DNA of 63,818 bases, filler included, from Kipferlia bialata (taxonomy: Eukaryota), in NCBI GenBank assembly GCA_003568945.1. It is 4 parts of 4 records of this genome, joined end to end, with 100 filler letters (N's around TTAATTAATTAA, not from the genome) between each part and the next. Parts side by side here need not be neighbours in the genome. Positions count along the whole stretch, not along the records: positions 25,963 to 57,951 come from BDIP01000094.1; 3 more parts are not named here. The stretch is one strand, 5' to 3'. Below are positions 26,233 to 48,630 of this stretch, one piece after another. The number at the start of each line of letters is the position of its first letter. Position 1 is the stretch's first letter. Made by a program: the position numbers and the translations under genes. Below the pieces are notes generated by a model, which saw nothing but the letters and a program-made list of their open reading frames with translations, searched no databases and had not been told where the DNA came from.

Positions 26233-29200
26233 ATGTCACTGGTCGTGTATGACGTGTGTGGCCTTCTTCTACCAGCAATGCCAGCTCCCTTAGTCACACG
26301 ACTGTCTCGACTGCTCCAGGAGTATCCTTCTGTTTCAGTCCTATCCCCTCCAGAGAGAGTCAACCTCTACAAGGAGCTCTGTGGAGTAGCAACCCCTCAT
26401 CAGCTTGCGGCCCACTTCTCGTGTTCCAACCCCACTAGGGACACATTAGCCTTTGTTCGAGGATACCATGCCTACGTTGACCACCGTTGTTCCTGCACTG
26501 AGGTAGTTAGGGCCCCTGCGGATGGGACTGAGGCGGCACCGGCAGTGACAAGTGACCTTCTCATCCTTCAGGTATGACAAGCAAGTTGACTATTCATGAA
26601 TCATCGTACACGGTCTCATTATCCACCCACTGATGCCCAGCCCGCAATCCTAGGTGACAGTGAGGAGGGGCAGACAGTTAGGACGGTCGAGACAACAATG
26701 ATTGAGTCGATATCGACCAAGAGCCTCTCGTCAACAGTACATACCCATAGCAACAGCCTGGGAGACAGGGACGTCACAAGCAGGTTCATAGTGACCCAGC
26801 CGGCAGCGGAGCGTATTGCCATCGTAGAATCTCTCCTTGAGGCTGGATCTGTGCCAGTGTTGCTCGAAGGTACTAAAATGATGATCCTACACGGTATTCA
26901 ATAATCATACATGTCAACTCCTTTGGACATCTTGGGTGGTACTGGGCTACATACAACATAGTTAGACATCACAAGAGTGTCTCTCCTTCTCACTATGACT
27001 AACCCAAGGCCCCACTGGCACAGCCAAGACGTCTACTGTGTGTGAGCTCGCCAGAAGGAAGGGGCAGCGGCTGGAGAGGTTCAATCTCTCGGAACACACA
27101 GCCACAGCCAATCTTCTAGGCCGGATTGAAGTGACGGCCAGTGAAGACAGACCCTTCATGTTCAGAGAGGGGGCATTCACAAAGGTATATCACCATCAGA
27201 AATTGTCACAGTATCACTCGATACCAACCAGGCTGTCTCATGCTCACTCCAGGCATATGAGAAGGGCTACTGGCTGCTCCTGGATGAGCTCAACCTCGGC
27301 GGCCAGGGGGTGCTGCAGTGTCTGGAGGCAGTCCTGGACAACGACATCCTCGCCCTCGACACCCTCGGAACAACACGAGAGATCCCAAGGTATGCGGTGA
27401 TGTACATCCCTCCACCCCACACACAGAACTACACTATTGAGACAGTCCCACCCCAGGCACCCAGACTTCCGTCTCATCTGCACCCAGAACCCATCCTCGG
27501 GGTCCTTCAAGGGCATGCGCCACGAGCTGCCCCCTGAGTTCCTGAGCAGGTTCAGGAAGATCATATTCCCTGACCTAGGTATCAGTAATCGACCTTGATA
27601 GACCTGTTTCCTCTCTACACGATACCATCAATCAATACCTCCTGCCGTCTCCCACCCCAGACCATTCCGAGATGACAGCCATCGTGCAGCACATCCTAGA
27701 GGGCGGCCAGTACCCCAAGGCGAGGGGTATGGCATCCACCCTGGCCTCCTTCCACCAAGATGCAAGTAGGCTCACCTGCGATGGCATTATGACGGTACTC
27801 ACACTGAGGGAGATGAAGCTCTGTGCCGAGATCATTGCACAGAACCACCGTGCCAATGTGGGTGAACTTGTGTACACCGTGTACGGGGCCAGGTACAGTG
27901 CCAATCATGAGGGGATAGCCAGAGCCCTGCTCAAGAACGGATTCCGCAAGGGGCGTGGGGCCATCACTGCTACACTGCCAGTGCCTAGTCTGTCTACAGA
28001 GGATAGAGGCCGGGTTCCAGACTACCTATACCTCACAGCTGGCCTCGAGAGGTCCCTCTCTCTGGGGCTACACGCAGCCAGACAGGGAAGACACGTCCTG
28101 TACTTCGGCAAGAGTGGGTCAGGTACAAGTGACCTCATTCACTCCTATACATCCTCGTACTAGTACCATAACCACCTCTCACTGTAAATGCACCCACCCC
28201 AGGTGTGTCTGCCCTCGCCAGACTGACAGCCCGTCTCTTGGCTGGGGACCGAGACCCCTTCTGTCTCATTGTCACCCCGGACACCACCATAGACGACATT
28301 GTGGGGTATGGGGACTAGTTATAGTGATACAGAGTGTCGAATCCCCCCCCCCATCCCACCACCTCACCACAGCCACATGGTGCCTGCCCATACACGACAC
28401 TCCAGGGACGAGGTGACCCAGCCGAGTATGAAGAGCACAGAGCTGCTGAAGTGGGAGTCCGGTCCGGTACTGGCCGCAGCACAACAGGTGGGGGGACAAA
28501 TACCAGTGTCTCTGCTATACGTGCATCATATCCTCTGACCCCAGGGAGTGGGGTGTGTCCTGGACAACATCAACCAGGGGGAGAGCACCACCCTCGAGAG
28601 ACTCAACCCCCTCCTCGAGACCAACATAGTCCTGGACAGAGAGACCCCAGTGTTCGACGCCTCAGAGTTCTCGGCTGAGAGTCAGGAGCTGGGACCGGGG
28701 TTCCGAATCTTCGCCACTGCTACCCTGGATGACAAGTACGTTTCATGGGACTACACGCTTCAGTACATACACTCGTCCGTCACTCTTTGGACTGACCGAC
28801 TCAACCCTCTCACCCAAGGAAGCTCGCCCTCTCTCCTGCGTTCATCAACAGATTCAGTGTGGTGAGAGTGTGCGACCAGATCGACCTCTCCCACAAGGCC
28901 CAAGCCAAGGCCCAGATCGAGGGTATAGCAAGGGCCACCCTGACCCAGGCCCAGGTCCGTGTGACCATCCCCAAGATACCTAAGGCAAGGGAGGAGGCAC
29001 AGGAGGCAGGTCTATCTGGACCCCAGACACAGTCCAACACCCCACCTGCTACGCCAGCCGAGACCCCTGTCCCCCTCCCCCACGCCGTGTGCGCCATCTC
29101 TGTCCAGAGTGACTCCGAGGGCTCAGAGTATGAGCAGGAGGAGCACACAGACTCAGAGGAGTCAGACAACTCGGAGTCCAGCAGCAGCTCAGAGAGTGAG

Positions 29201-32200
29201 AGTGAGTCAAGTGAGTTTGAGATACCACAGAGTGATGAGGATGGGGCCATGGAGCATGAGAGTCCCATGGTGGGTGGCACTGTAGACCCATCCGACATTG
29301 GAATAGGTCTGGTTGGCATCGGAGGGGAAGAAGAGCCAGAGGAGAGCTCTGAGGACGAGTACGTCATCCCCGTGACCAGACGGCCTGTGGATGAACTGGT
29401 GCCCCTCGTCGTCGAGTGCTTCGGCAAGTTCAGGGCCGAGAACAAGACAGTCAGGAACCTTGTGAATCTGTGCCGCGGGGTGTCTCGACTGGGGGATGTC
29501 ATTGAGGGAGCAGCCCACCTGACTGTCCTGGCCACCATGCTCAGTCCCACTGGCATCAGCAGGGAGTATAGCATCCCAGACGGAGACAGGAAGGTCCTGC
29601 TCGAGTCAGTTGAGGAGGGCTATGAGACTGAGCGGTTCTTCTACAAGGGGGCCGCGAGTGTGGAGTCCCTCGTCTGCATGGTGGCAGGCGTAGACATTGT
29701 GCACAGCCCTCTGCTCATCGAGGGCCCGGCTGGCATTGGCAAGTCAGAGTGCGCCAGGTTCTATGCCAGGGCCAGGAAGGGCAAGAACACACAGCTCATG
29801 TCTCTGACATGCAGTGCAGACACAAGGCCAGAGCACTTCTTCGGCCAGGCCATATCCGCCGGGGGCGGCTTCTCCTTCAGCCCTGGCCCAGCTGTCCTGG
29901 CCATGGAGAGGGGCCACGTGCTGTGTGTGGACGAGCTCAACCTGTGCGCCCCGTCCATCCTCCAGGCCCTGCTCCCAGTGCTGGAGGCACAGCCAGGGGA
30001 GTGCATCCGAATCCCAGGCCGCAGTGAGCCTCTGGCCGTCCACCCCGACTTCGTGTTTGTGGCCACCCAGAACACATTCTCAGGACACGGGAGACAGCGA
30101 CTGCCGCACTCCCTGCTGTCTAGGTTTGTGGTAGCAAGAGCCAACCCCCTCACAGAGCAGCAGTTGACTGCTATTTGCACACGCATCCTGCGCCCCACCC
30201 TTGACACCCTGCCTGACCAACTGACAGCTAAGAGGCTGTCGTCGTTGATCACACAGGCCAACGCACCAGCCTCGGCAAAGAGCAAGCCATACCTGTACCC
30301 ACATGCCTCTCTGACACTAAGGGACATCAGAAGGTGATGACCTGTCACATATTTTACACTATCCTACATGCAAGGACTTGATACACCTAGAACAATCTCT
30401 AACAGCAGGCTACTGAAGCGTCTGGAACACCCCAAGGTGTGGCTGCCGTACCAGGTGTGCACCTTGCTGACCCAGAAGGTATCCCACCGGCTCACAGACA
30501 TCAGACGCAACCTGGTGGATCTCGTTGCCACCTGCTTTGACTGTGACGCAGAGGCCCTGATGAAATACCAGGAGGGAAAGGTGGCAGTCAGTATGGATGC
30601 GACTGGATCTGCCACTCTGACCAAGGGACCAGACACGGCACGTACCAGAACTAGACCGAGACACTATGTGGGACTCAACCTGGTGAACCAGCCCCAGCCC
30701 CTGCTGCAGGCCCTCTACCAGCTGGAGCTGTGTCACGCAGAGGAGAACATCCTCCTGGTAGGCGGTACCAGCTACAAGGGTCTGATCCTGACAGAGATAC
30801 TGAGGTCGAGGGGAAAGGAGGACGTCGAGGACATCTCACTCACAAGAGAGACCACCACAACCCTTCTGGCAGGGTCGCAGACCGTCAACAACCACTCTCG
30901 TGCTATGCTGGTATTCTTGGATCTGCTCCAGGTTGCCGCCCGGCGCCTGGGTGGTCCATTGTGCAAGGTTGCCGCTGAGGCCCACCACCTGGCAGAGACC
31001 ATTCAGAGCAGCACAGGTCTGGACAGGAGCGGGTACGAGGCCATGATCAACCAGGCACACGAGGATGCCACACGCCTACTCGACGAATTCACCAAGGATG
31101 TGGTGTCGGGTCAGAGCGTCGTCGCCTACAAGAATCAGGAGTTCATCGAGAATGCCCTGAACAACGCACTGCGCATAGTCAAGCCCCCATGCAGCCATGA
31201 CAGTGTACCCCAGGCAGACTCGGCGCTGAGGCAGCTCGTGACCATATTCAGCATAGGGCGCTTGACTCGTGCTGCAGTCTTTGGGACCCCCCTCATCCTG
31301 CGCAATGTGGCTCTACCGGCTGCTTCTGTGCTGGAGAGGATGAACCCCCTTCTCGAGATGCCGCCCACCTACACACTGCCCGAGGACGCAGCCTCCACAA
31401 TCACTCAGAACAACGACGCCACAGTCCCAGTCTGTAAAGGGATGAACGTGCATGCCACTGCAACGGAGCGCCAGCTGAACGACCTCTCCCACGCCACCCG
31501 CAGCCGATTCACTGAGATATCGGTAGCGCCATACACGGAGTCTGACGTGCAGCAGGTGGTGCTGGGGGTGGCTGAGGATGTGTTGCAGACCAAGGGGTGC
31601 AGGACTCCGCCAGATACAGTGGCGTCCCTCATCAACTCCAAGGCCCTGCTAGTCCGCCAGGACTCCCACCTGTCACTGAAGCAGGTGCTGTGCTGGACAA
31701 GGCTGGCCGCCTCGCTGGTGAGCACTGGCATGGACGTGCCCACCGCAGTGTCTGTGGCAGGGGTCAAGGCGGTGGCAGACAGAAACAGCAAGAAGTGGTC
31801 AGAGATGGTGAGGCACATGGGCCTCGACACCATCACCCCCGCCCTACAGCAGTATGCCCAGTGGAGACAGAACCCGAAGGCGAACGACACGTTTATGCGG
31901 CAGAGCCTTGAGAAGACCACCCTCAGGTCAGGGCAGCGCGTCACTGCACCCTACTCTGGGGCGAGAATGAGAGCAGCGGCCTCATCTGGGGCATATGACT
32001 TTGACGAGTACACCAAGACGCCTACCCTGCTCTACCTTCTGGATACCATCATAACCTGCGTACAGGCCAACGTCCCTGGTATCCTGAAGGGACCGCCTGG
32101 GCTGGCAAAGAGCAGTGCCTTCGAGGCCATCCAGAGGGCGACAGGCCACAGGGTGACCAGACTCAACCTCTCCAACTCCACCACTGTGGAGGATCTCTTT

Positions 32201-35200
32201 GGGAGGGTGATGTCGAGTCCAGAGGAGGGCGCCATATCATTTGAGGTATAAAACACATCCACTAACATACTTTCACAACTGAAACCACCTCTCTCACCCC
32301 AGTTCCAGAAGGGCGAGCTGACCGATGCCATCGAGTGGACACCTGAGTCTGAGGACAAGGATAGCCTTAGCCCCATCGTGCTACTCGATGAGCTGAACCT
32401 GGCCCCTGCCGCAGTCATTGACGCCATCACGCCTCTGTTTAAGCCAGGGACCAAGCGCCTGCTGCTCCCTAGCGGCAACGTGATGCCACTGAGGCACTTC
32501 CACCTCTTTGCAACTGTGAATCCAGCCTCGTCTTCGTCAGGAAGAGGCGCTCTAGACAGATCCCTGACAGACAACGCAGTCCTAGTGGAACTGCCTTCAT
32601 ACCGGACTCCAGAGGTCGTCGCTATAGCACACGATGTGCTAGGGTGTGTGCCATACTTCCAGACAGAGGGTAGGCTGCAGAGGGCTGTGGAGGCTCACTT
32701 TGCGGCAGGGCAGGTGATGCGGACCACCTCATCAGGCTCAGTGACTCTGAGAGAGCTCATCAAGATGCGGCAGCTGGTAGAGTCCACAAAGTCTTCCCTT
32801 CCACTTGATGTCCTCCTGCGTCTACTCTACGTCTCTCCAGTCCAACAGCCAGAGACTAGAGAGAGACTGACCAGGGAGCTGGGCCTGCGTGTGGCCAATG
32901 CCGACATCCCCAAGGCCATGGTGCACTACAACGACAACACCTACTCTGTTGGGCACCTCAGGCTGGAGAGAGGGCCATACACACAGATGACCTCAGAGTA
33001 CCCTCTCTACGAGACTGTGTCCTCTACCCAGCTACGCTACATGCAGGACGTCACTGCCGCAGTGTGTGCTAGCAGAGTATGTCTGCTGCAGGGCAACTCG
33101 GACTCCGGCAAGACATACATCGTCAGGGCACTGGCCGCCTTATCCGGCCATAAGCTCAACATCGTACAGCTACACACCGACACCGACACCACCAGCATCA
33201 CTGGTAGACTGGAGCCCTGTATGCCCCAGACAGACAGGGTGCGGAGAGTGCTGGAGGAGGTAGAGACTCTGGTGACAAGCCTCACTAGCCGACTAGTGGA
33301 GAAGACACCCCACAAGACCACCACAGAGGTAACTTGGCCTGCATTGCTATCACTGCTGTCTGAACTGTGGTCTACTGAGACAAGTGGTGCTACGGTAGCC
33401 ACCCATCTTGAGACCCTTGTCCACAGCCTGTCGTTCAAGGAGGGCACCGAAGAGGCCACTATTACTCATGCACTAGGGACAGCGGCTGAGGAGCTGGGTA
33501 CACACACCAAGGAGATGTCTATGCGGTTTGAGTACAGGGACTCGCTCCTGATCTCAGCAATGCGCAAGGGAGAGTGGGTCCTCTTTGATAACATCCACGC
33601 AGGTGAGGGTACTGGGAGGGGATACTATGTACTACCATACACTAACTATCACATAACTCAAGCTCAACCCAGCTCCCAACGATGTCGTTGAGCGCCTCAA
33701 CTCCCTTGCTGAGGAGAACCCCACCCTGACAGTGTACGAGCAGGGGACAGGGCACAGATTCAGCATGGATGCCGAGGACCCCAAGTACCGTATATCGCCC
33801 AACTTCCGTCTCTTCCTGACCGCTGACAACTCCCGGTCCTTCCACAGCGGGTCTGTATCGGGCGCCCTACTCTCCAGATGCGTGGTGGTGTCAACCGAGC
33901 CAACGATCATGGAGGGCCTGAGCTGTGTTGGGATCATCTTTGCTCTGCTGCGCCGCCACATTGTGGAAGACACGGCTCGTGAGGTATGGACAGCTATTTC
34001 TGAATCTCTCATAGAGACACTGATGCCAGGTCGCATTCAAGCTCGTGCACGCCTTCCGGTCGATCTGGAAGAGTGAACGGGTACAGTCGACACAGATATC
34101 ATTCAGAACCCTCCTCTTCACAGTTCGTGCCTTCCTCTCTTTGTACCGGTCCAACGCAGACATCGGACAGTGTATGGGGAAGGCTGTGTACCTCGCCCTC
34201 CTGTACAGTAACACAGAGAGGACAGTGGTACAGCCACTAGTGCTGGCTGCAGTATCCAAAAGAGCAACTGAAGTGGAGAGATCCCTTCTGGCTAGTCGGT
34301 TTGGCGACCAGTCCCACAGACTCCTACCCCTGTACAGACGGCTGGCCAGAGTGCAGGCCTCCTTCCTCTGTGGTGTTCCTCAGGAGTTTTTGGCACCATG
34401 TATCAGTATCCTGCTCTCTGGACAGGCCAATGGTCCAGTCCCAAGTGACATACTGCTGTCACAGGTGGCAACAACGGTAGCGAGGGTCCAGATAGCCAAG
34501 GCAACTGTAGCCTCCGTCAAGGCATACACCCACTCCATGCTAGTTGCCATCAGAGACGGAATCAAGGTGGAGGACGGGCCTGAGGTTGTTGCGAGACTTC
34601 GCAAGACATGTACCTTGGCTAGACATGTAACCAGGTCTGCCCCAAAGAAGAGCCCCCAGAGAGATGCCGCAGCCCTTCTCTCCAGCATATACCCCATCGT
34701 AACATGCCTGACCGAGCTGTCAGAGGCGTGCTCTGACGAGCACGGCAGCTTCAGGGTCTCCCAGCTCCTCAACGATCCCTCCGTACCAGCAGAGGTCCAG
34801 TCAGCCGCTGCTAAACTACACACCAGCACCATATGTTTCGAGGCATGCTGGGAGGCCGAAATCCCCGCAATAGCGTTTGACAAGTGGCTTCATGCTCTCT
34901 TTGCGCTCATTGACAAGAAGAACCCACAACGGAATGCATTTGTGAGTGCCGTCCTGGAGTATCTGATCGACCCCTCCAACAGTGAGTTTGGCAGTGACAG
35001 TGAGACAGTGGCCAGGGTCGGTGCAGCACTCAAGGCAGGGTGGCTAGTGGACATGGTGTCCCTGTGCCGGCGCCACCCAGAGTCCGTGGTGCGGCATCCC
35101 TATGTATCCCAGAAGAAGTGCCAGTCGGTGCTGGCTGAGAGTGAGACCCAACCTGGAGCCATCCACATCTTCCTATCCGCCAAGGACGGGATTAAGTGGG

Positions 35201-38200
35201 CAGCCGTCCAGACGACAAGCAGCTATATCACCTGTGACACCCGGCTCTTCACTGAGGCAACACACACCTTCACCCGTCATAAGCCTCAGGACGAGGACGT
35301 GTGTGAGCACATGGTCAAGTGCAACGGGTCCCGGTGGCAGTGGGAGCCCATGGAGTATGACGAGGCCTCGCAGACATACACCCTGACCAAGAGCTATGGG
35401 AGGATAGAGGAGCCTCTCACCGAGCACTTCATCATCAGGAGAAACCGTGACCAATCTGACACCGCTCTGGTACAGGAGTCCATTGGGAAGGTAATTGGTA
35501 GACTATTTACACCTCTCTTGGAATGATGTATTTCAATGTGTCCCATCTGACGGTAGGTATTCGAGGAAGGATGGAGGAAGGACAACGTTGTCGACATCCA
35601 GCCTGTTACAGTGACCCACACCCCACACGTATTCGTGATGCGCCTCCTGGATCTCAAGGTTGAGAGGGAGGAGCTACTGAAGAGTGAAGATGCCACCCTG
35701 GACTACCTGTCCAAGGTGAGGGAGGGCACCCCAACCGAGTCCATGGCTGTTGACGTAGAGCCCCACATCGGGGCCAAGCTGCTCTACTCCAAGATCATCA
35801 CCTGTAAGCCCAACCCCAAGTGGGTACCTCTTGAGTCCCTTGTCTTGAGTAGCCTTTCTCCGGTCAAGAGGGCACTCTGGTCAAGACTCCTGTGCTCTTC
35901 TGGCACTGTAAGGAACACAACCCAGGCCACAGGCGACATCTCAGTCCAGAGCCTCCTGCATGACTGTGTGTGTGCCCTCGTACCTATGCCAGGGATAGAG
36001 TGGGCAGCACACGAGATCCCAGCAGCTGTCATTGTCTCCACTGTCAACAACATCACACAGGAGCTGGAAGAGTATGAGAAGCAGTCCAAGCGAGCTCACA
36101 AGGCAAGGGAGAAGGGGAAGACGGCCAAGATACCAGACCTAGACCAGCTGACAAGCCTAGTGCTGTCCCACACGACAAAGACGGCGGAAGAGGGTATAAC
36201 AGCTGTTAGGACCACATGCAGCGCAGGTGCAACTGCAGGGCTGGTGCAGAATCTTCGTCTTGCATTCGACCGTGTGTTCAGTCGGGTAGCGGCCGTTCCC
36301 ACTCTAAGACCCGTGCAGAGCCTCATGGCCATGGCCACCTGCCTGGATGGGTACGATGAGTATCTGCGGACAGAGCACTCCCGCAGTCAGATGTCCAACG
36401 CCAACAAGAAGCTATGTGCCCAGCTTGACACTGTCAAGGAGGCAGCACAGCGTTTAGGAGTCTCATGTCCAGAGATGAGGCCAGCCCTTGCCTCCCTCTC
36501 ACGTCATATTGAAACAACCTTGTCGACCAACCAGAGTAGCGACGACGCCAAGCACAAGTGGCTGAGCAAGAGGCTACTGGCGGCACAGAGCCTCTATGAG
36601 TCGATAGAGACAGTCTCAGCTCAAGTAGTGTCAGGGGTGTCGAGGGACATTGCTTCAGTGAGTTGGGGGAAGACACTCCCAAGGACACCAGATGGCTACT
36701 CCGCACTGGACGTGCGGGTGCTCACTGTGCAGACACTGGCGCGACACGTGCTGTCGACTGACGTGATCAGAGAGTTGGAGTCAGCGAGACAGAACACATC
36801 ACGGGTCATGGAGCTGCTTCCACAGCTCCGCAAGTCGCCACTTGCAGAGTTGGGAGAGCCACTGTGTGATATTCTCACTGAGAACCACATGCTCTCCAAG
36901 TCACATATCCTAATGCTCTCATCGGCTGCCAATGCAACCACGATATGTGAGCTGCATAGGGCAGGGGCTCCACTAACGTCATCGTCCATGATAGAGTGTG
37001 TCGCCCCCTCTCCCCCTGTCACGGAGGAGTGGGCACACGTTGCATCACAGGAGCTGCTCAAGATACTCCCTCACCCAGAGCGCCACGCCATGTGTGTCCC
37101 TCACTATACGCCAAGAGATGTATTGGCATTGGTCCACCTCAACGCCGGCAGTGACCAGACTCCTATGGCAGGGCCACTGTTCCGCCACACACTGACTGAC
37201 CAAGTTGTGCCTCGGATGAAGTGCCTCAAGGCTGACCTAGCTAAGGGTGTTACGTCCTGTACACAGATGGCAGACAGGATGATCAGTGCAGTGCGGGAGG
37301 AGCTCTATGAGTACACTAGCTCAGCCATATCCGAAGACGTTGGGGATATCGAGGCCCTGACTGGCTACAAGACAGTACCAGACACCTCATTCATGGCAGA
37401 CTTGATTGACGGAGTGCTGGAGGCCAGAGACATAGCCATTGAGCTGGACAAGAACAAGTCCACTCCTGTGTCTGACACTGACACGTCGGACATGGATATA
37501 CTACAGTGTCAGTTCCCCCTCTCTGTGTCTGACACTGTCACATACAGACAGGCCCTGGACATGCAGCCCCATCTGTCTCAGTGGCTATACTACAACACTT
37601 CAGTGAGGGATGGTCTGGCCCAGGCCATCCACCGATGCCACTACCCGGAAGGTACAGTCAGTGCGGCACTCCTGCCATACAGGGTGGCCTGTGGGTGCCA
37701 GCCCACCACTACCACCCACAAGGGTGAGTGGTTCAGAGGCCTGGCCTCCTGGGCACATGCCAGGGTCACCCTCGGCAATGAGTGGCACCACCCAGATGCA
37801 GCCCCACACAGGGTGCCTCTCCTCCTCGGAAAGAGCATACTCCCTGCGGACACATACTGTGACATGGTTGTCAGTGGCGTCGAGCGTATCGACGATGTGG
37901 TTGAGTCCTTGAGACATGAGCTTGGAACCAATGCTAGGGAAAACGCCGTGGGTGACAAAATCGAGTCCATAGTACGCGGTTGCATCTCTGTAGCCCTTCT
38001 CGGTACCCCTCAGGGCGAGACCACCCGGCACCAGCAGATCCACTCTCCCATAGGAGAGATGGCCAACCCCCTGACCCAGCTTGTCAACCTGCAGGGTGTA
38101 TTGGTGGCAGACCTACAGGCCATTCACACAGAGGAACAGCGCAAGTTGAAGGAGAGGAAGAGGACTGCAGAGAAGAGACTTGAGCAGAGCACCGGGGGAA

Positions 38201-41200
38201 TCCGGACTCTGCTGGGAGAGGTTAAGACTGCATACCAGACAGACATATCTGCAATCAAGACCAGGCAGAATGGGGAGCACCAGCGCAGAGTCAACGAGTG
38301 GCTGGCTGACCATAACAGGGTCCAAGTGGCAATTCAACGTACAGCATCTGATAGTAGTGCCTACCAAAGGTCTCTCTCCGTCGTTGCCGAAGCCTATGCA
38401 ACAACCCTTCTACCCAAGCCAGGTGACAAGAGTGCGATGATTGCCATTACTAATGATATTCCACTCCTGTTGAGAGCCTCCGGTGTTCTAAGGGCCGCCG
38501 CCAATACCCTTCCTGCTGGCAAGGTGATCTCCATTCCCCCTGAGTCGAGATGCCATCACTTCGAGGTCACCTGTGACCATGCCCTCACCAATCCTCGACT
38601 GGAGTGCCACTTCACATGCCCCCTCAGGGTAGAGGCAAGAGGGGCAACCACCACCACCACAGACCACTCGACCTCTGCAGGCATCCCTCTTCAGTACACA
38701 CGCCCGGGACACGCAAGGGATGTGGTGGTCACAACAGCCGGAGTGACAGGAGACACCACCTTCACTGTTGCTGTGGCAGGTACTGATGGGGAAGAGCAGA
38801 CAGGTCAGGATGGCTTCTGCCAGCTGACCAGGCTGACTGGCATGGCTGCTATGGGTGCTGTGGGTGTCCGAGAGGCAGCACTCAACAGGGGCCTGGTGCT
38901 GACACACACACAGCTACTCGATGTCGAAGTTCCTAAGCCATTTGGAACCGTGATGTCACTCGCTACGGCGCTCAGTCAACACGAGTCGCAGTATCCACCT
39001 AGCAGACTAAACCAACTGGATGCAGCTTGCCGTGAACACCTAGAGTACCCACCAAGGCCACAGGCCCCTACCACACCGGCTCTTACGGTACTCTCGCACC
39101 CTAGGCAAGAGATTGGCTGCCTACTAGACGCTGATATTACCTACGTCAAACAACGTTCATTGAACCAGAACGCAATGTTCCAGCTGAAACGAGACCTTGT
39201 GGCACTACAGCATGTGTTCAAGAACCTCACAGAGCCACAGACCCAGGCCTTCACTCTCTTCTCTGCTGCGATGCGAGACCATGCACTGGCAATTGATGCA
39301 GCCGTGAAGAACCTTGATGCCGTGTTGGAGTTTGCATCAATCCCCAAGAAGGGCTACAGTGCCATTGTGGCACACTCCCTCTCTCCAGTGCTGCCACCTC
39401 CCACCAAGCCCAGAGGCCTGACGGACTGGCGTTGGACCAACAAGAAGAGGTCCTTCCGGCCAAGCAGCGTGAAGAGGGGAGCTCTGCGCTCTGCCGTTGT
39501 GTCAGATGGGTCTGAGGGTCCCCTTCTGAGCATGCCCCGTGTGATTGCAGACCTTGGGACATACATCATGGGTGTCAACAGCGAGAGACATGTCGGTTCC
39601 CTTACGATCAACAACAGCGCCAAGGAGGATGTGGTCATTACTCTTGCCCTGACTGCTGGGTCCATGCTGGAGGTGTATCCCAAGGAGGTCACTCTACCTA
39701 CACGCAGCACGGCCACCTTTGAGTACAGCCTGACCTCTGACCCAGCCACCGCTGCCCCTATCACCGCAACTGGCTCTATCACTGTGGCATACCCCAATGG
39801 AAAGGGGAAGCAACACACAGTGCCCCTCCTTGTGGGTCTTAGGGTGCAGCCATTCTACGTCAACGTGACCTCATCCGAGCCACTATGTCAGAAACTCGAC
39901 AGCTCCGCCCTGGGGTGCTATGCACCAGACGGCACAGAGGTCAGGCTGGCACTCTCTGTCCCAGAATACCACACCTTCCCGGCGTTTGCAACATCTGTCT
40001 CATCAGGGCCTCGCAACACTGCGCACCAGGGCTGCTTCAAGTTCGGAAGTACAGAGAGGAGTCTGACGCTTGCTGGATATAGCAGAGAGGAGACTAACCT
40101 CAACGCATCCGTCACGGTGTCCTTCTCCCCGACTATACACTTTGACGCAGAGTACTCATCCCACCTGGGCCGGATGGGCACTGATCTCTACCAACTCAGG
40201 CAGTGCAGCAATGGCTCATGGGAGACAGACAGAGTCTCAACGGGTACCACCATCGAAAGGCGGGGCAATGTGAAAGAAGACAGCCTTCACTTTGTCGTTG
40301 TCAACAGATGCGTCCAGGGGGACACATATCGCCTAAGTCTATCTGACTCTCTTGCCTCTAAGACAGCCCTTCGCGGGGGACCCACCAAGAACCTCAGAGT
40401 CGTAGTCCCCCCCGGAGAGGCAGATGTGTTCACGTTGGACCTCAGCTCCAGGAAGCAGCTCTCTGGAGTCCTCTCTGTGACCTTGCACTCAATCAGGTTC
40501 AAGGTACAGTACACTGGAAAGAGATCCCTTGCCATAACCGGCACACGACAGAGACGCCTAGGCCCCTATAATCCACACACGAGAACCTACACCGAAGAGA
40601 ACAGGGACCTCATACGCATCACAAACTCCACACCTGGCCCCTTGTCTAGTCACCGTGGATACTTACTCTTTGTGAGTGAGACCGGTGTTGAAAGACGGAT
40701 CGGGATCAGCTGGGAGAGAATCAATGCCCACAAGCATAATGACTTCCAAGTCAAGGCCACTGACTACGGCACCTACTACCTTGTCTGCTCTGATGACGAA
40801 GATGCAGCCCACAAGAGCCATGTGGTTCACATGAAGAATCCCAACTCTCCACGTCAGGATGTGTGTTTCGACTGCCGTTATTATACGTTTGCCGGGGACA
40901 GACTTGACTCCGGTAGCACGCACACCACCTTCAAGCCCATGCATGTTGAGATTCGGGTGAAGAGATCTTGGAACTCCCCAGAGGTCAAGGGGGTAGTGCC
41001 ACTCTATCTCTTTGACATACCAATGCTCTCATCGGAAGAGCTAGAGGCTATGTCAAGAGTACAGAGGTGTCCTGACTCATTCTGTGTTGCACTGTGCGTC
41101 TCCCTCATTGCAAAGATGCTATTTACGCAAAGCGAGAACCCTTACGGCATACGCCTATTCACACACATGAGCACAGCGCTCACAATGGGGGATATGACTA

Positions 41201-44200
41201 TTCCCACCAGATACGAGTCCACCCTACTCAAGTTCTGCCAGGCAGCTACACTACTTCCCAGGAACAACCCATTCACCCCATCAACACCTTGCAAGGTACC
41301 TGCACTTCCAGACATTGCCACAGACCCCAGTGGGCACGGCCGAGAGTTCACTCGGTTTGTGACAAGTGTACTCCGTAATCTTCCACGCCGACAGATCAAT
41401 GATCGAGAGAGCAGGTTCTCTCACACCTCCTTCATGCTAGGTGTCCTCTCATCCAGAGTGTCAGGGTCGGGTGATATGAGATCCTTTGCCAGAGCATTCG
41501 GGCTCAGTCTTCCTGAGTCCCTCCTCAACCCAACCATCATACACGACAGGGGGGATGGAAGTGAGGTCATTCAGAATCTTGTGCGCAAAACTGACACACT
41601 CCTGAGGGCCCTACACCTGATGAAACAGGCCCAGGAGGTGGTGAAGCTCAGACAGTCATACGGACAACTGAAGATGACCATGCTTCCAAGTGTCCGTGAT
41701 ATGAGCACACTCAGTTCATCAGCACTAGCGTCCAAGAAGGCCGCCATTTTGAACACCACCCACAGCAACACAGGCCCCTCCGACCCACCCTCTAGGGATG
41801 ATGCACTTAGACTTCGGCAGGTTCGAGCAAACATTCAGGACTACAGAAGGATGTCTCAGCGCCAAGCAGACGAGAGCCAGCGCACCTTGGCCGCTCTCAA
41901 CCACTCGGACCCTCACACTGAGTGGGTGCTCAACGCACAGGGCCTCCACCCTGCTGTAGCTGTGAGTGCCCCAGAGGTAGAGGACGTGAACCTCTCTCTG
42001 AAGACTCAGGAGGAAGACTCAGACGCAGTTGCTTCCGACTCCGTCATTGAGACCTACAAGCGAGGTCTGTTGGAGATTGAGAAACTACAGCGAGACACTC
42101 TCGCCTTCCATGCAGCCGTACTCAAGGCGCTAGCCCAGCAGGCATCCATCTTCCCTCTCTGCCTGTCTCAAATGCTGGGGGACCCTAATCTAGCTCTGAG
42201 TGTCCCAGACGTCATTGTGGAGTACTTCAGAGTGGCCATCAGCACCGTCGAGTCTCTCTCACAGAGTGGCCTCTCTTGCTTCAACAACAGGGAGAGGATA
42301 GCAGAGGTGGAGCAGTTCCTTCTCGGTGATGTGGCCTCGAGACTAGCTGAGGCAGAACTCCCCGTCCCCTGCCACTCCACTATCAGACAGGGACACCACT
42401 CCCAGCAGAGACAGAGCGCATTTGTGGTACCTTGTCCAAGAGGCATCGCAAGCCCATGCAACGAGAGCTGGTCCACCAACCCCAAGAACAGCGATGAGGC
42501 ACCCGACCAGTCTCCTGCTGAGCACAACCAAGAAGTACTGGCCCAGATGGGGTCCAAGGTTGATGTCTCTGCACTCCAGTCTCGTATTAACTACAAGCCT
42601 GTGGTAGTCCCCACAACAATCACCCCCAAACGAGAGGAGAGCGACACAGCCACTGCCCTGCGCTCGCTGCAGGAGGCAGACGCAGCCCGCCTAGCAGCAA
42701 ATGCTATTGAGTACACACACATCGACGTCAGCAGACCAGCTGGCATAGGGAGAATGGCAAGGGAACCAGGTGCAAGGAACAGACACAGGCCTGCCATGCA
42801 TCTGAGACGTCTAGGGGACTGGGAGGAGGAGACGGCAGAGGGGTCGGACAATGAGTCCGATGATGTCGAGGATGCCATCAGAGGAGACAGAGACCTAGAC
42901 ATCGACAACCAGCCCCCTACTGTTGAGGCCCAAAGACTGACAGTGGATGAGTATGACAGGCTGTATCCAGAGGACGTCACCCCCGAGCGCATGCTGAGCC
43001 ACCTCTTCAAGCTGAAGCCCCCTATGAGTACCGACATGGCATCAATCGGAAAGATGACCCCAGCATCATTCCCACCAACACTCCACAAGGCAACTGCAGC
43101 CACTCAAGCTCTAATGAACTGCTGTGTGCCTGTTGCAGACAGAATGGTGAGCAAGGTCCTGGTTGGGCTCCCAAGTACTACCTCTCTGGCCTCCCATGAG
43201 GTATGCCTCCTGTTGGACCTGTCAAGGACAGTGGACGACAGAAAGAGAGACATGCAGCATGTCGTGGCCCTCTCTCTCATGGAGGCTCTGTCCAGCCTCG
43301 AGGTCGCCTTCTCAGTCGCAGTCTTCAGCCACAGGGAGTTCTTCTACGTCCTCAAGGACCCCTCGACTGTGTACACAGCAGAGACGGCACAGAGAGTGTG
43401 CGATGCCTTGAGGGTCAAGCGCAAGTCAGCCAGCTATGTACTAGATGCTGTCGCTGCCGCGGCCACACACGTTGCTGGGAAGAGCAACTGTTTCTCTGCT
43501 AGGCCATGCACCGCCCGCTCTATTGTGATAGTGTCTGACCTCTACTCACCACACATTGTGCTTGAAGAGGCAGACTGGGCAATGGTCTTCTCCAAGATTA
43601 ACGCACATGTGGTGTTTGCGCAGCTCGAATCCTCATACAGCGACTCATCTCTCGGAGCCCGCTTCCAAGAGAGAGTCAGTGCAGTGGTTGATAAGGCTGT
43701 CAACACCTCCTCCTCCGCTGAGTTGATAGTCGTGCCTGAGGACGTCATGAGTACAGGGAGTGAGTCAGTGGGACGCATAGACACTATGCTGGTCACCGCA
43801 CTGCACAGCGTACCCATACGCATCGGGTGTCAGAAGAGTGCAGCTCCGGCGCCCAAGGTGCCTCTCAGGAGTGGCCTCGCAGATAGCAACGGGACCACCC
43901 TTGATGCAGTGGGGGCAGACGCCCTCCCCAACATCGCCCTTGGGAGGGGTCAGACAGGCGTATTCTCCCAGGCAGCCACCATTGAGTCCTTGGCTGACGG
44001 TGTTGATATCAACGCCAACATAGAGAGCCATCTCGAGCCGGGTCTGTGCAGTGTGGAACCAGTCTGGGGAGACAGGGTGACACCTCCCAAGCGCAAGGCT
44101 GTGAGTAGAGCCATGGCAGGGATAGCACGCACCACAAGGGCTAGAGTGCAGGCTGCCACCTCGGCTGTAGGCACTACCATCATGCCCCCCAACGTGGCCA

Positions 44201-46647
44201 CGAAGTGGTGTGCGGTGGAGTATGGCACCATCATCGACATCCAGAGGCTGCTGCGGTTCATCATGACCAGAGGCCAGGAGAGGAAGTTCTACCTCTCCAA
44301 GCAGGGTGGGTACAAGCGCATGTACAGCTGCAGTGTGGTCATAGACCTCAGCGACTCCACTATGTGTGCAGCCAACAAGGCACACACCTTCACCAGCGCC
44401 ATTCTGCTGCTCCAGACCCTAGCCATGCTGGAGTTGCCTAGCGTGGATGTCCTCCTATCCACAGGGGCATCGACCCGTGTCCTGGCCTCTGGCATCAGGG
44501 CCAGCGACATGTTCGACAAGACCCACCCCCACCCTCTCTTCCCTGCCCTCTTCTCAGCCATGCAGGAGAGGCACGACGGGGCATCTATGGGGTCAGCAGT
44601 GGGCCATGCAGTGCAGATGCAGGATGTCCGGCCTGCAAGTGGCGGCAACAGCCGCCTGGTATTCGCCCTGACAGATGGGATGGTCTCATCCGACGCTGAG
44701 AGAGCGAGACTCCTCACCGCCCAGAGCTATGCCCGAGCCCACAGCATTGAGGTGATAGGGGTGGGAGTCGGCATGCGGCCTGTGTTCCTAAGCAGAGTAT
44801 ATGCCAGCTGCTGCTTCGCACCCAGCCCATACGACATTGACAGCGCCATCTGCGGTGTCTTCACCCCCTCCGCCCTGACAGGGGATGAGACCATAGAGGA
44901 GGTGTGCCAGGAACTAGCACTAGACCCCCAGACCCTAGAGGCCGTGGATACTACGAGGAAGGAGGCAGCCGCTAACACTGACCTCGTATCGACTCTGAGA
45001 GACCACGTCATCACGGAGGACTTCTACAACCAGAAGTCCCTGAACCTGAGGGCGGAGGATGGCACCTGCAACCCAGACGGGAACGAGTACGACCTTGGCA
45101 AGTGCGGCTACTTCACCGATGTCCACGTGCTTGTGTGCATGTTCTACACATACAGAGACAACAACAAGGACAAGCAGGTCACCCCCGCATGCTTCAACAC
45201 AGGGGCCAAGGGAAGTGACTCCAGTCCACGAATCAAGCTGGAGGAGAAGGGCTTCAGCGTCACAGTGGTGCATGACTACATGACAGCCATCAGAGCCATA
45301 TGCAGCGGCAAGTACAGAGTCACATACGTGGTGTGCAGCCCTGGAGATGGCATTCTCCCCAAGGAGGCAGCTGACCCCAAGAGCTCCAACCTGGTGGGCC
45401 AGTTCACAGACTACCTCATCAGGTGAGGGACATAACCCCCTTGATAGTATATATCAGACCGTCCTAACAACAGGTATTGGAACACAGGGGGCAGCGTGGC
45501 CTTCTTCGCCGACAACGAGCCCTTCTACTACGAGGCCAACCTGTTCCTCGAGAGGGTGCGGTTTGGCACTGAGAGGACAAGACTGCAGCTGACAGGCAAC
45601 TATGTTGGCAAGAAGCAGCTCTCTGAGCGGAAGAGCAGCTCAGCCAGCACTGGCACATTCAATTCTCCCACCAAGGTATACCGAAATACCAAATTGTCCC
45701 TATATGATCCTCTAACGACTCAGGTGAAAGTAGAGGGACGCCACTACACGAGGGCCACCTTAAGCGCTGGTCTGCGTTCCATCTATGAGGGCCACACTGT
45801 GTGTTACCCTAAGCCCGGACCCATCGCTCCCTTTGAGGCCTTTGCATACAACAGCAACACAGAGAGTGAGCAGCCGACCATTCTGACCTATGACCCCCCC
45901 TGCACCTCCTCCACAGGCACCATTGTGGTGGACACTGCAGCCTCCAGGCTGTTCTATGAGTACAGTGCAGAGGGCACGGCCCGGTACATATCCAACATCG
46001 CCGTGTGGTCACTGAGGCTGGCCCACCTGAGGCACGAGCTGGACCTACAGGATATCACACGCCCCCTCCCAGCCATCACAGTCAGAATCGACCAGACAGT
46101 CAAGTGGACATGGCCCACACCAGTGTCCAGACCCGTGCACCACATACTGATACTGGATGACAGTGGGAGCATGAGTGGGAGCTGGGCCAGCCTTATGAAG
46201 GCTGTCAACAACTTCCAGACGACCAGAGCAAAGTCCAGCCCTCAGGACAGGTGGACAATCATCAAGTTCAGTGTTGACGCCACAGCAGTGTGTGTCAACG
46301 AACCGATCACAACGGTCCCATCCATCAGCTTCGGTTGTGGTGGAAATACCAATCTACACCTGGCAACCCGAGAGTGTGATGCCAAGAAGGGGTCATACCC
46401 GTCGTCACACACCACTCGTGTCCTCTGCTTCACTGACGGAGGAACCAATGGGAAGGAGGAGTGTCTCGCATGGGCTACCAAGGTACACTCTCCTCCAATC
46501 AACTGGACCGTGGATGCCATTGGGTTTGCATCAGCACCCCCCGAGTTCATGTCCTCTCTGGCCCGGAATGGGGGAGGGCAGTACGCATTTGCAAGAACCC
46601 CCGAGGAACTCACCTCTCACTTTGAGGAGTTTGCCATGGCTGACTGA
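26233..46647 (+). CDS. Giant midasin/MDN1-like AAA+ protein (six AAA modules, long linker, three vWA domains, GATase-like module), ~6,429 aa
   Basis: Exons 26233-26571, 26641-26869, 27009-27184, 27253-27389, 27457-27578, 27661-28122, 28203-28305, 28373-28487, 28545-28735, 28819-30333, 30409-32245, 32303-33602, 33673-33983, 34030-35490, 35557-45422, 45474-45675, 45724-46647 sum to 19,290 nt, and every splice phase is consistent. Midasin-type motifs: LLEGPTGTAKT, FREGAFTKAYEKGYWLLLDELNL, HPDFRLICTQNP, GPAGIGKS..VDELNL, FEYRDSLLISAMRKGEWVLFDNIHAAPNDVVERLNSLAE, and the pre-MIDAS motif IMPPNVATKW..IDIQRLLRFI..KFYLSKQGGYKRMYSCSVVIDLSDS. Confidence 0.9.
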
Positions 46648-47153
46648 GAGTGAGGATAGGATTCAGGCAGAAAGAATACACAATAATAGACTCAATCCAA
46701 AAAGAGAATGATGTCAGCCATGTTAGAAACTACATCTGAATATAAAGAGTACACAGCGAAACAGAACTATAACATAAATATGAACATACAAATACATATA
46801 CCACAGAGAACTATCAAGGCAAGTGAGAACAGAACACAAAATCTCACCTATGTTCGTGACCGATGGACGTTCATACGGTGTGATTGACTCACAGAGTGAG
46901 AGTGACGTGTCACCGCATACGCAAAACATGTGTTCTGTGCTCCCAGTATCTCAAGCATCGTAGAGTCTAAAGACAGAGGAGAGCAGAGTCTGCCGCATCA
47001 GCTGCTTGTGATCAGGGGGTGTAGGACAAAAACGCATTCAATTGGTGGCAACACCTGTCGCAGTGCTGCCACTTTCTACCCATGCCCATTACGCTCCCTA
47101 TCCGGTATTCCGCCAACATCCAGTGTGGTGGTCAATGCCGGCAGAATCTTAGT

Positions 47154-47741
47154 ATGTGGAGGGGGGTATGGACTCTGAGCATAAGTGCCGAGCCTGTGCA
47201 GGAAGGGTTGGAGGATGGGGGTTCCCCATGCATGGCTGTGCTCACATACCAGCCTGGCCCTAAGGACACTACCCAGACCAGGTGGTATGGGACTGCCTCC
47301 AGAGACTATGTGTGTGGAGACTATGACTTCCTGACCGTGGACTGGACTGCCTGTGCCACTGGGGTCAGGACCAGTGCCGCACTTAGCTGCCTTCCCGCAG
47401 ACCTAGGGGCTGAGAATCTCTCCGAGAACGCACTGCCCCCGGCCTTGCAGCATGCCTTCCTGATCAGGAACCGGTACCTGATGTGGGGGGAGACCGGCAA
47501 CGCCCTGGACCCAGGCACTGACCATGATGGCAATGGCACAGCAGACAACTGTATCAGACTGGATGTGGTGGCAGGATACAGGGGGGTGACTGTGGACTGA
47601 GGACCGCGGACTCTCACGTATGGGTGCCCGGTTCAGTCATTGGAGGAGAGCTTTGATGGTAGCCAGTCCTACTGGCATTGCCCAACGCCGACTCATGCTA
47701 GGTCATGCTTCCTAGAGCTGATACGGCTCTCGCAGGGGTGA
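47154..47741 (+). pseudogene. Intronless orphan ORF with one in-frame TGA at 47598-47600 (pseudogene, short gene, or recoded stop)
   Basis: ATG 47154 (or the later MAVLTY start) reads to ..GVTVD*. The same frame then continues 46 more sense codons (GPRTLTYGCPVQSLEESFDGSQSYWHCPTPTHARSCFLELIRLSQG) to TGA 47739-47741, with exon-like composition. No family recognised. Confidence 0.4.
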
Positions 47742-47889: not shown

Positions 47890-48630
47890 CTAGGCATACT
47901 TGCGAGTCCACTCCCTGGCAGTTGCCAGGTACCGCTGGTAGTCTCTCTTGTACAGGTTGGCAGCTGGGGTGGACTTACAAGATGGATGGATAGTGTGAAG
48001 GACATGTGTATATGTTATGTATATATGACAAGGGGATCTGGTCAGTACCTACAGCCGAGAGGGGGTCGTCTGCATTGGCATCACTGAGCAGAGAGGTGAG
48101 GGAGAGGAGCACCTTGGAGATGGAGAGGACAGGTGACCAGGCCTCCTGGAGGGGAGTGACATAATTTTGGAATATAGGAGGGATTATTGTATGGATAGTA
48201 TACAGAGTGAGGGTGAAGGGGGGGGAGGGGGGACATGCTACCTTCAGGATGTCGAGGCAGATGGCCCCGCTCTCACTGATGTTGGGGTGGAACACCTTGT
48301 TGATGAAGCGGAGCTGGGGGGGCTGGGGGTGAGGAGGTATCACATATGAGAGGTACATACACGACATAAATGCACCTTGAATGGATAGTCATGGGAGAAT
48401 GTGATGGAGAGGCGGAACACTCCTCCCTCATATGGAGAGGATGGGGGACCCATGATGCTAGCCGTCCAGTGGTATAGGTCCGACTCATCGTTGGGGCCTG
48501 CACTCACTGGTGTTAGAATAGGGAATCGTAGACAAACAACACCCAAAGAGGTCGATTGCCCTACTATACCTAGGGCAACGGGTTCCCTGTGTAAGTCCCG
48601 CAGTTCCTTGGCCAACCGCCTCGCAGACAT
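47890..48630 (-). CDS. Ubiquitin-conjugating enzyme E2, Ubc4/UBE2D-like (5 exons)
   Basis: Spliced product [150 protein letters not shown] motif and catalytic Cys are present. Confidence 0.95.

What the first reader, a model, noticed from the sequence alone, without database searches (positions are those of the whole stretch)
43195..46647. Three different vWA domains in tandem with graded MIDAS integrity
Seen: vWA1 VCLLLDLSRT..IVIVSDL (DxSxT, degenerate; ~43198-43800). vWA2 is preceded by the midasin/CobT-type motif and reads VVIDLSDS..FALTDG (~44180-44860). vWA3 reads ILILDDSGSM..GGNTN..CFTDGG..VDAIGF..LARNGGGQY (intact DxSxS-T-D; 46138-46644) and looks like a stand-alone vWA. Inference: vWA1/2 arose by duplication of the midasin MIDAS, and vWA3 was appended from another family, perhaps as a swappable C-terminal module.
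Basis: partly seen in the sequence, partly recalled or inferred. Interest (0 to 1): 0.7.

Follow-up and report, generated by a model that had tools for sequence, protein, structure and literature searches.

The report
Multi-gripper midasin paralogue in anaerobic protists
This is the tail of a 6,414-residue protist protein that has the six-part ATP motor of the ribosome-assembly protein midasin but three vWA "gripper" domains instead of one, plus an overlooked extra domain; it belongs to a widespread, apparently undescribed sister family of midasin and likely pulls on targets other than the ribosome.

Summary
The three vWA domains are real. They end one 17-exon gene (annotated as Kipferlia bialata KIPB_000761, "Midasin", 6,414 aa) with six AAA modules. 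The intron at 45423-45473 lies inside MID and 55 of 55 homologues run straight across it, so the last two exons belong to this gene. The architecture defines a family (159 hits): subfamily A (MID; metamonads, Blastocystis) and subfamily B (no MID, up to four vWAs; Bryopsis, Adineta). The MIDAS gradient is family-wide in A (intact: vWA1 1/37, vWA2 17/57, terminal 7/8), whereas B keeps all sites. vWA1 and vWA2 both match midasin MIDAS best, but only vWA2 has the ring-docking loop. The terminal vWA changes type repeatedly on the tree; here it is B's fourth vWA, an old family part, not a recent graft. It is not true midasin: no shared linker, acidic tract, PY-NLS or UBL hairpin. Targets unknown. 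The one matching RNA run shows mostly unspliced, probably antisense RNA over the gene.

The parts
26278..46647 (+). Whole gene, 17 exons, 6,414 aa (an in-frame ATG also lies at 26233)
   Evidence: Stored protein P0002 is 100% identical to the window query and maps to 17 exons; named K. bialata KIPB_000761 / 'Midasin' by its sources
26830..33929 (+). Six dynein/midasin-type AAA modules (aa 162-330, 456-638, 900-1065, 1379-1501, 1663-1838, 1978-2246); modules 1, 3, 5 with Walker A and DE Walker B, 2 and 6 with DN Walker B, 4 without Walker A
   Evidence: Pfam AAA_5; own AAA profile; module sequences and scores against midasin D1-D6 profiles
33930..43128 (+). ~3,000-aa linker, unrelated to the midasin linker, no D/E-rich tract; poorly conserved across the family
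   Evidence: No phmmer hit (best E 1.1) in 81 midasins and none in 150 family proteins; max D/E 0.19 against a midasin median of 0.44
43129..43806 (+). vWA1: midasin-type vWA with N-terminal helix but no docking loop; MIDAS degenerate (DxSxT)
   Evidence: Model residues 1-233 on MDN1-MIDAS Z 19.9; MIDAS intact in 1 of 37 subfamily-A members
44092..44862 (+). vWA2: midasin-type MIDAS domain with N-terminal helix and the loop ('finger', 44170-44325) that docks in the AAA ring in Rea1 and NorQD; no PY-NLS, no element III
   Evidence: Best PDB sequence hits of its profile are midasins, E 6.7e-10; Z 20.8 to Rea1-MIDAS; loop alignment; for the loop's role
45115..46038 (+). MID: GIFT / class I glutamine-amidotransferase-like fold, split by two introns; no Cys-His-Glu triad motif; conserved acidic residues (D/E6053, E6129, D6177)
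   Evidence: Model residues 663-948 on IFT52N (Z 15.4, rmsd 3.0, 199 aligned), ThuA-like protein (Z 15.3, rmsd 3.1, 212) and OST48 chain 6s7o_G (Z 14.5, rmsd 3.5, 210); conservation in 55 sequences; no Pfam or NCBIfam family
45423..45473 (+). Intron 15 (51 nt, GT-AG), inside MID
   Evidence: Ends and frame; 55 of 55 MID homologues gap-free across the junction; not seen spliced in RNA run X1
45676..45723 (+). Intron 16 (48 nt, GT-AG, in frame, no stop), inside MID
   Evidence: Source annotation, ends; not seen spliced in X1
46135..46647 (+). vWA3: short terminal vWA ('Vb' type), MIDAS complete (DxSxS, T, D); same type as the fourth vWA of subfamily B
   Evidence: 72 bits with a profile built from 13 subfamily-B fourth domains only, no hit with the Va and Vc profiles; tree; Atlas
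46644..46847 (-). 204-nt minus-strand GT-AG intron of a probable antisense transcript that runs back over the gene
   Evidence: Joint in the 19,053-nt contig of run X1; intron ends

Best explanation
The stretch is the C-terminal head of a giant midasin paralogue with a six-module AAA motor, and the protein likely works as an ATP-driven extractor in which vWA2 is predicted to dock in the motor ring while the intact terminal vWA likely grips the target. Shown: one gene carries six AAA modules, a 3,000-aa linker, vWA1, vWA2, a GIFT-fold domain and vWA3; this order is conserved in a family; only vWA2 has the loop that in Rea1/Mdn1 and NorQD enters the ring pore and is needed for remodelling; in subfamily A the metal site has decayed in vWA1 (nearly always) and vWA2 (often) while the loop and the terminal site are kept; the terminal vWA occurs as three types that change repeatedly across the tree. 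Inferred: the six modules close into a ring; labour is divided so that vWA2 is the force-transmitting shaft, vWA1 a structural or regulatory remnant, MID a non-catalytic binding or spacer module (as IFT52N is), and the terminal vWA the exchangeable Mg2+-dependent substrate gripper. The targets are probably not the pre-60S factors Rsa4/Ytm1.
For: Six AAA modules, the sixth scoring best with midasin D6 (133 bits) and the fifth with D5 (72). vWA1 and vWA2 match midasin MIDAS structures first (Z 19.9, 20.8); Foldseek's best single-domain matches are NorD and MDN1-MIDAS. The loop before vWA2 aligns with the midasin loop and is conserved (N 110/116, G 107/117, Y 111/122); a midasin-only loop profile gives 10 bits or more to 15 of 114 vWA2 and to 0 of 64 vWA1, 0 of 47 Va, 0 of 24 Vb, 0 of 12 Vc. 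The loop's role is known from PMC6624252 and PMC13036017 (passages). Full MIDAS (DxS/TxS, T/S, D): subfamily A vWA1 1/37, vWA2 17/57, Vb 7/8; subfamily B 27/27, 41/41, 15/16; without the loop-2 column, Va in A 20/22 and Vc 10/12. Terminal type needs 8 changes on the 38-protein tree, 2 being the minimum; two Chilomastix paralogues are sisters (98*) yet end in Vb and Va. A related strain's RNA differs in vWA2 by 13 synonymous to 1 non-synonymous codons.
Against: No function was tested and no target is known. The ring was not modelled; module 4 lacks Walker A and modules 1-4 do not map one-to-one on midasin D1-D4. The loop profile is weak (window 6.6 bits, family median 1.3). vWA2 keeps DxSxS and Asp in the window and in 37 of 57 subfamily-A members, so it may still bind ligand. 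Model pTM is 0.47, so domain packing is not predicted. MID has a nearly invariant acidic residue (D/E in 54 of 55) and could be an enzyme. In the only RNA run that holds the window, 10 of 11 enclosed sense introns, including 15 and 16, are unspliced, so a spliced full-length mRNA was not seen.
Confidence: 0.55

Rival explanations
1. Same machine, used in biological conflict: a fast-evolving anti-microbe or anti-virus remodeller, comparable to bacterial MoxR-vWA ternary systems or (recalled) RNF213, kept off until needed, with variable ends as sensors or effectors.
For: Several paralogues per genome among the 30 look-ups: 3 in Blastocystis sp. Blastoise, 2 each in Tritrichomonas foetus, T. musculus, Dysnectes and Chilomastix. 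Linkers are conserved only within clades; accessory domains vary (kinase in P0142 and in the cluster of P0015, RING in P0106). A related strain shows 6 non-synonymous to 1 synonymous codon in the linker. Probable antisense RNA covers the gene. PMC7159879 (passages) describes MoxR-vWA conflict systems.
Against: No toxin-like or nuclease effector domain was found in the window's protein; the codon counts are tiny and come from short contigs; paralogue expansion is common in these genomes (recalled). This reading adds a purpose to the best explanation and does not replace its mechanics.
Confidence: 0.25
2. All intact vWA domains grip at once: the head is a multivalent clamp on one large or polymeric target, with no division into shaft and gripper; the decay in subfamily A only reflects fewer contacts.
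For: Subfamily B keeps intact sites in vWA1 (27/27), vWA2 (41/41), Va (26/27) and Vb (15/16); ASH/HYDIN-type Ig domains in subfamily-B linkers hint at cytoskeletal or ciliary targets.
Against: In subfamily A the decay is ordered by position and the loop stays conserved where the metal site is lost. No Ig family was detected in the window's linker.
Confidence: 0.12
3. It is this organism's ordinary midasin, with extra domains added, and works in 60S ribosome assembly.
For: UniRef names it Midasin; the best AAA hits are midasins at about 35-44% identity; vWA2 is midasin-like.
Against: No linker homology to 81 midasins; D/E tract absent (0.19 against 0.36 or more in all 81); PY-NLS pattern in 71 of 81 midasins but 3 of 118 vWA2; strand 5-6 segment 20-24 aa in 117 vWA2 against 42-61 aa in 21 midasins, so the UBL-binding hairpin is missing; 111 of 119 AAA hits have a single C-terminal-type MIDAS and none has MID; vWA2 and midasin MIDAS form separate groups.
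Confidence: 0.05
4. Exons 16-17 are a separate gene or the gene model is an artefact.
For: Introns 15 and 16 were not seen spliced in run X1.
Against: Intron 15 cuts MID in a conserved helix; 55 of 55 homologues are continuous there; Dysnectes P0003, P0024 and Chilomastix P0039 (EukProt entries with transcript-style ids) carry vWA1-vWA2-MID-Vb in one ORF.
Confidence: 0.03

Closest known systems
Midasin (Rea1/Mdn1/MDN1)
   Same: Six AAA modules in one chain, long linker, C-terminal vWA with N-terminal helix and ring-docking loop; vWA1 and vWA2 superpose best on its MIDAS domain.
   Different: Three vWAs (four in subfamily B) plus a GIFT-fold domain; unrelated linker; no D/E tract, PY-NLS or element III; degenerate fourth AAA module; several paralogues per genome.
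NorQ-NorD, CbbQ-CbbO, CobS-CobT (MoxR-type AAA+ with a finger-bearing vWA partner)
   Same: Finger-bearing vWA next to AAA_5-type modules; NorD VWA is among the top Foldseek matches (E 4e-7); the finger transmits force (PMC13036017, passages).
   Different: Those are prokaryotic two-gene systems with a homohexameric ring and one vWA.
GIFT domains (IFT52N, OST48/Wbp1) and ThuA-like class I amidotransferase folds
   Same: MID has this fold (Z 14.5-15.4); like IFT52N it shows no Cys-His-Glu motif (PMC4818760, passages; alignment).
   Different: No detectable sequence similarity (no Pfam/NCBIfam hit); here it is embedded between vWA domains of an AAA motor and has its own conserved acidic residues.
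Bacterial MoxR-vWA ternary conflict systems
   Same: AAA+ plus vWA with variable added domains (PMC7159879, passages).
   Different: Multi-gene, prokaryotic, with defined effectors; no relative of MID was found in prokaryotic genomes by the pattern scan (a weak test).
RNF213/mysterin and dynein (recalled)
   Same: Giant eukaryotic proteins with six AAA modules in one chain.
   Different: Neither ends in tandem vWA domains; not compared directly here.

Membership tests
Midasin (MDN1/Rea1) | Six tandem dynein-related AAA modules | tested here: met
Midasin (MDN1/Rea1) | Modules correspond one-to-one to D1-D6 | tested here: inconclusive
   Module 6 best with D6 (133 bits), module 5 with D5 (72); modules 1-4 best with D5, D4, D5, D4
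Midasin (MDN1/Rea1) | Conserved linker after the ring | tested here: not met
   Best E 1.1 against 81 midasins
Midasin (MDN1/Rea1) | D/E-rich unstructured tract before MIDAS | tested here: not met
   0.19 against min 0.355, median 0.44 in 81 midasins
Midasin (MDN1/Rea1) | Single C-terminal MIDAS domain | tested here: not met
   Three vWAs and MID; 111 of 119 AAA hits have one MIDAS-type domain
Midasin (MDN1/Rea1) | MIDAS loop (element II) | tested here: met
   Present in vWA2 only; aligns with midasin loop, profile score weak (6.6 bits)
Midasin (MDN1/Rea1) | PY-NLS in the loop and UBL-binding hairpin (element III) | tested here: not met
   PY pattern 3 of 118 against 71 of 81; strand 5-6 segment 20-24 against 42-61 aa (elements as in PMC6624252)
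Midasin (MDN1/Rea1) | Extracts Rsa4/Ytm1 from pre-60S particles | not testable with these tools
   Needs biochemistry
vWA / MIDAS domain | Rossmann-like vWA fold in all three domains | tested here: met
   vWA1, vWA2 by model and superposition; vWA3 by secondary structure, Pfam and Atlas; vWA3 did not appear among the 50 structural rows shown
vWA / MIDAS domain | Complete DxSxS-T-D metal site | tested here: inconclusive
   Met in vWA3; DxSxT in vWA1; loop-2 residue Ala or Ser in vWA2; metal binding not tested
GIFT / class I amidotransferase-like fold (MID) | Fold | tested here: met
   IFT52N Z 15.4, ThuA-like Z 15.3, OST48 Z 14.5 over about 200 residues
Active class I glutamine amidotransferase (MID) | Cys-His-Glu catalytic triad | tested here: not met
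   No conserved His among columns at 70% or more; D/E (54 of 55) after the strand that follows the GG motif; that this is the nucleophile elbow is inferred from topology
MoxR-vWA conflict systems | Linked effector and inducible defence role | not testable with these tools
   No effector family detected in the window's protein

The most novel reading that the evidence does not exclude
Eukaryotes have a further ancient lineage of single-chain six-AAA motors, sister to midasin, that carries three or four vWA heads; in anaerobic protists it has split midasin's one MIDAS domain into a ring-docking shaft (vWA2) and an exchangeable terminal gripper, joined through a GIFT-fold domain, and it is retargeted by exchanging that gripper, possibly as a defence system held down by gene-length antisense RNA.
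Probability: 0.35. Interest if true: 0.8.

Novelty: new variant of a known kind. Interest (0 to 1): 0.6.

Why it matters
Midasin is treated as a single, ribosome-dedicated motor with one MIDAS domain. A widespread paralogous family, filed in databases as 'Midasin' or 'hypothetical', shows that the same motor was redeployed with several grippers. It gives a natural experiment on how AAA rings couple to vWA domains (loop kept where the metal site is lost), adds a branch to the midasin-dynein family tree, and warns that midasin calls in metamonads, Blastocystis, algae and rotifers can be wrong. Members occur in culturable protists, so targets can be sought by pull-down with the small terminal domain.

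Tried and rejected
No genome is held for the window, so paralogue number and the presence of a canonical midasin in this organism were not tested. Single-sequence AlphaFold failed (pLDDT 34.7). Direct BLAST of vWA1 against vWA2 found nothing. The word-based search with the vWA region found only P0001 and with alignment A1 nothing (only 736-2100 aa searched). The first vWA3 profile drifted to all vWAs on iteration and was replaced by single-round Va/Vb/Vc profiles. The 'B/noMID' counts mix in truncated proteins; one search uses strict sets (72 with MID, 41 with Va after vWA2; 38 of 151 left unclassed). MID found no sequence match in PDB, Pfam or NCBIfam; Atlas rows for it (ThuA, DUF4350, IFT52_GIFT, TM under 0.5) were leads only. 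A prokaryotic scan with the MID alignment could not be built and with P0125 found none of 21 candidates confirmed; this is a weak test. AU tests under the mixture model did not finish; they were run under LG+G4 on 20 of the 38 rows, chosen after seeing the tree (Vb p 4e-7, Va 0.002, Vc 0.006; on this subset the labels are not more clustered than shuffles). Trees did not resolve vWA1/vWA2/MIDAS. No stand-alone vWA outgroup was available, so the Vb grouping is relative to family and midasin domains only. Runs X3 and X4 laid nothing. Run X2 holds a small share and short contigs; it was used only for codon counts. No complex prediction was run. Ten paper searches gave no description of the family; the nearest is a passing mention of a 7,479-residue rotifer protein 'of unknown function' with partial midasin similarity (PMC7943196, passages), not checked to be a member. 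PMC6431247 (one passage) concerns a retrotransposon ORF and PMC11573180 (passages) does not list the family. The original midasin paper was not held. Subscription papers and supplements were not seen and may describe it.


Full report
Observation. They lie at the end of a 3,289-codon open frame (35557-45426) and a following 399-codon frame (45448-46647). Upstream frames carry AAA_5 domains. A search of 1.84 billion representative proteins returned a 6,414-aa protein, P0002, identical to the query; it maps to 17 exons from 26278 to 46644 and its sources call it Kipferlia bialata KIPB_000761, 'Midasin'. So the finding is the C-terminal fifth of one giant eukaryotic gene.

Anatomy. The protein has six AAA modules (aa 162-2246). 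Modules 1, 3 and 5 have Walker A and a DE Walker B, 2 and 6 have DN, and 4 has no Walker A; module 6 scores best with midasin D6 and module 5 with D5, while 1-4 do not map one-to-one. A 3,000-aa linker follows, with no similarity to 81 midasins or to 150 family proteins. An AlphaFold model of the last 1,140 residues from an 84-sequence alignment (mean pLDDT 76, pTM 0.47) shows four domains. vWA1 superposes on human MDN1-MIDAS (Z 19.9, rmsd 2.5, 199 aligned) and vWA2 on Rea1-MIDAS (Z 20.8, rmsd 2.8, 218 aligned), the two top rows among 48,161 chains. It has no Pfam or NCBIfam match, no conserved His, and D or E in 54 of 55 sequences after the strand that follows its GG motif. IFT52N has this fold without catalytic residues and serves as a binding surface (PMC4818760, passages); a sugar-binding role has been proposed for GIFT domains (PMC7226087, passages).

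Is vWA3 part of the gene? Intron 15 (45423-45473, GT-AG, frame-correct) falls inside MID, and 55 of 55 full MID sequences are gap-free across the junction. Dysnectes P0003 and P0024 and Chilomastix P0039 have vWA1-vWA2-MID-vWA3 of the same type in one ORF. Against this, RNA did not show the splice: in run X1 a 19,053-nt contig covers 27637-46960 and keeps 10 of the 11 enclosed sense introns, 15 and 16 among them (exon map). The same contig removes a minus-strand GT-AG intron at 46644-46847, and a short contig removes another at 27575-27638. A neighbouring gene shows six GT-AG joints and two intron bins with no cover in this run, so DNA is an unlikely source. A long antisense RNA is the likeliest reading; contigs cannot show strand.

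The family. 159 proteins scored E 0.001 or better; 150 were listed. With P0001 they give 151 sequences: 72 have MID (subfamily A), 41 have another vWA directly after vWA2 (subfamily B), 38 are truncated or unclassed. 21 of 122 proteins with a full vWA2 also hold AAA modules; most others are fragments. B ends in Va (Pfam VWA_4 type) in 24 and in Va-Vb in 17, giving four vWAs. A ends after MID in Va (21), Vc (13), Vb (8, the window among them), Vc-Va (1) or an unclassed tail (3). One full-length B protein, P0283, has six AAA modules and vWA2-Va-Vb with no vWA1 detected.

Graded MIDAS integrity. The gradient is a property of subfamily A, not a quirk of this gene. A complete site is found in vWA1 of 1 of 37, vWA2 of 17 of 57 (37 of 57 if the loop-2 residue is ignored) and Vb of 7 of 8; in B the figures are 27 of 27, 41 of 41 and 15 of 16. 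Only vWA2 has the loop before strand 1 that aligns with the midasin MIDAS loop. In Rea1 this loop binds in the ring pore and is needed for substrate release but not for binding (PMC6624252, passages); the NorD finger has the same role (PMC13036017, passages). In midasin the one MIDAS domain both docks and grips (PMC8837202, passages). A related strain's RNA contigs differ in vWA2 by 13 synonymous and 1 non-synonymous codon, in vWA1 by 10 and 7, in vWA3 by 1 and 1 (small numbers, short contigs).

Origin of the domains. A profile of 81 midasin MIDAS domains scores vWA2 highest (median 18 bits), then vWA1 (6), and Va, Vb, Vc near zero; vWA1 and vWA2 profiles score each other above the terminal types. 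That fits duplication, but trees leave vWA1, vWA2 and MIDAS unresolved and reject none of four groupings. The window's vWA3 scores 72 bits with a profile made only from B's fourth domains and groups with them (93), though no stand-alone outgroup was at hand; the Atlas places it near generic bacterial vWA clusters, which shows type, not origin. On a vWA2+MID tree of 38 A proteins the terminal type changes 8 times, with Chilomastix paralogues as 98* sisters ending in Vb and Va; AU tests on a 20-row subset chosen afterwards reject one clade for each type. The Va tree of A largely follows the vWA2+MID tree and is separate from B's Va (95*). So both Va and Vb were probably present in the common ancestor, and today's single terminal domain comes from repeated loss or from exchange between paralogues; no MID-Va-Vb protein was seen among 43 classed tails.

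Not midasin. The linker, the D/E tract (0.19 against 0.36 or more in 81 midasins), the PY-NLS (3 of 118 against 71 of 81) and element III (20-24 against 42-61 aa) are missing; 111 of 119 AAA hits have one MIDAS-type domain and none has MID.

Mechanism. Most likely an ATP-driven extractor working like midasin and NorQD, with the jobs split: vWA2 docks in the ring and transmits force, the intact terminal vWA grips an acidic residue of the target through Mg2+, MID spaces or co-binds, and vWA1 is a remnant. The anatomy and conservation are shown; ring closure, docking, the division of labour and any target are inferred (0.55). A defence role is possible (0.25): several paralogues per genome, variable linkers and accessory kinase or RING domains, as in MoxR-vWA conflict systems (PMC7159879, passages).

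Novelty. Ten paper searches found no description; PMC3495828 (passages) treats midasin and dynein as the two descendants of the six-AAA ancestor, and PMC7943196 (passages) mentions one rotifer giant with partial midasin similarity. The scan's notes hold nothing for this DNA, its relatives or these words; eight notes on prokaryotic midasin-like proteins concern other architectures and were not checked. Verdict: observation confirmed, interpretation partly supported; an apparently undescribed variant family of a known kind of machine; interest 0.6.

Noticed in passing
window 27575-46960, minus strand: Probable gene-length antisense RNA: in run X1 the contig over the gene keeps 10 of 11 sense introns but removes minus-strand GT-AG introns at 46644-46847 and (second contig) 27575-27638; no ORF over 112 aa in the spliced 43000-46960 part; it ends near 46960, head to head with the ORF at 47025-47600.
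   Followed up: partly
window 41587-41799: A related strain's RNA differs in this linker stretch by 6 non-synonymous and 1 synonymous codon, the reverse of vWA2 (13 synonymous, 1 non-synonymous); small sample.
   Followed up: partly
window 28623 and 32387: Loose ends of other X1 contigs (one 6,829 nt) join at AAA motifs and look like other midasin-type AAA transcripts of the same organism; possibly the canonical midasin or paralogues.
   Followed up: no
window 29096-29390: An acidic, Ser/Glu-rich insert lies between AAA modules 2 and 3, not before the vWA domains as in midasin.
   Followed up: no
window 47975-48700, minus strand: Spliced gene that reads as a ubiquitin-conjugating enzyme (E2; family name recalled from the motif), with three CT..AC joints in X1.
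   Followed up: no
window 25863-25962: N gap with a short spacer; the gene starts about 270-315 bases after it. Three more such gaps at 56742, 57952-58051, 61455-61554.
   Followed up: yes
P0066, P0073, P0084, P0092 (subfamily B linkers): ASH/HYDIN/Cep192-type Ig-like domains in the linker; a beta-rich stretch in the window's linker (about 38500-41100) has no Pfam hit.
   Followed up: partly
P0142, P0015 cluster, P0106: Family members with a protein kinase domain (C- or N-terminal) or a RING finger.
   Followed up: no
window 1-25300, plus strand: Many short exons with repeated beta-propeller-like motifs (FG-GAP-like by eye, recalled), apparently one large intron-rich gene.
   Followed up: no
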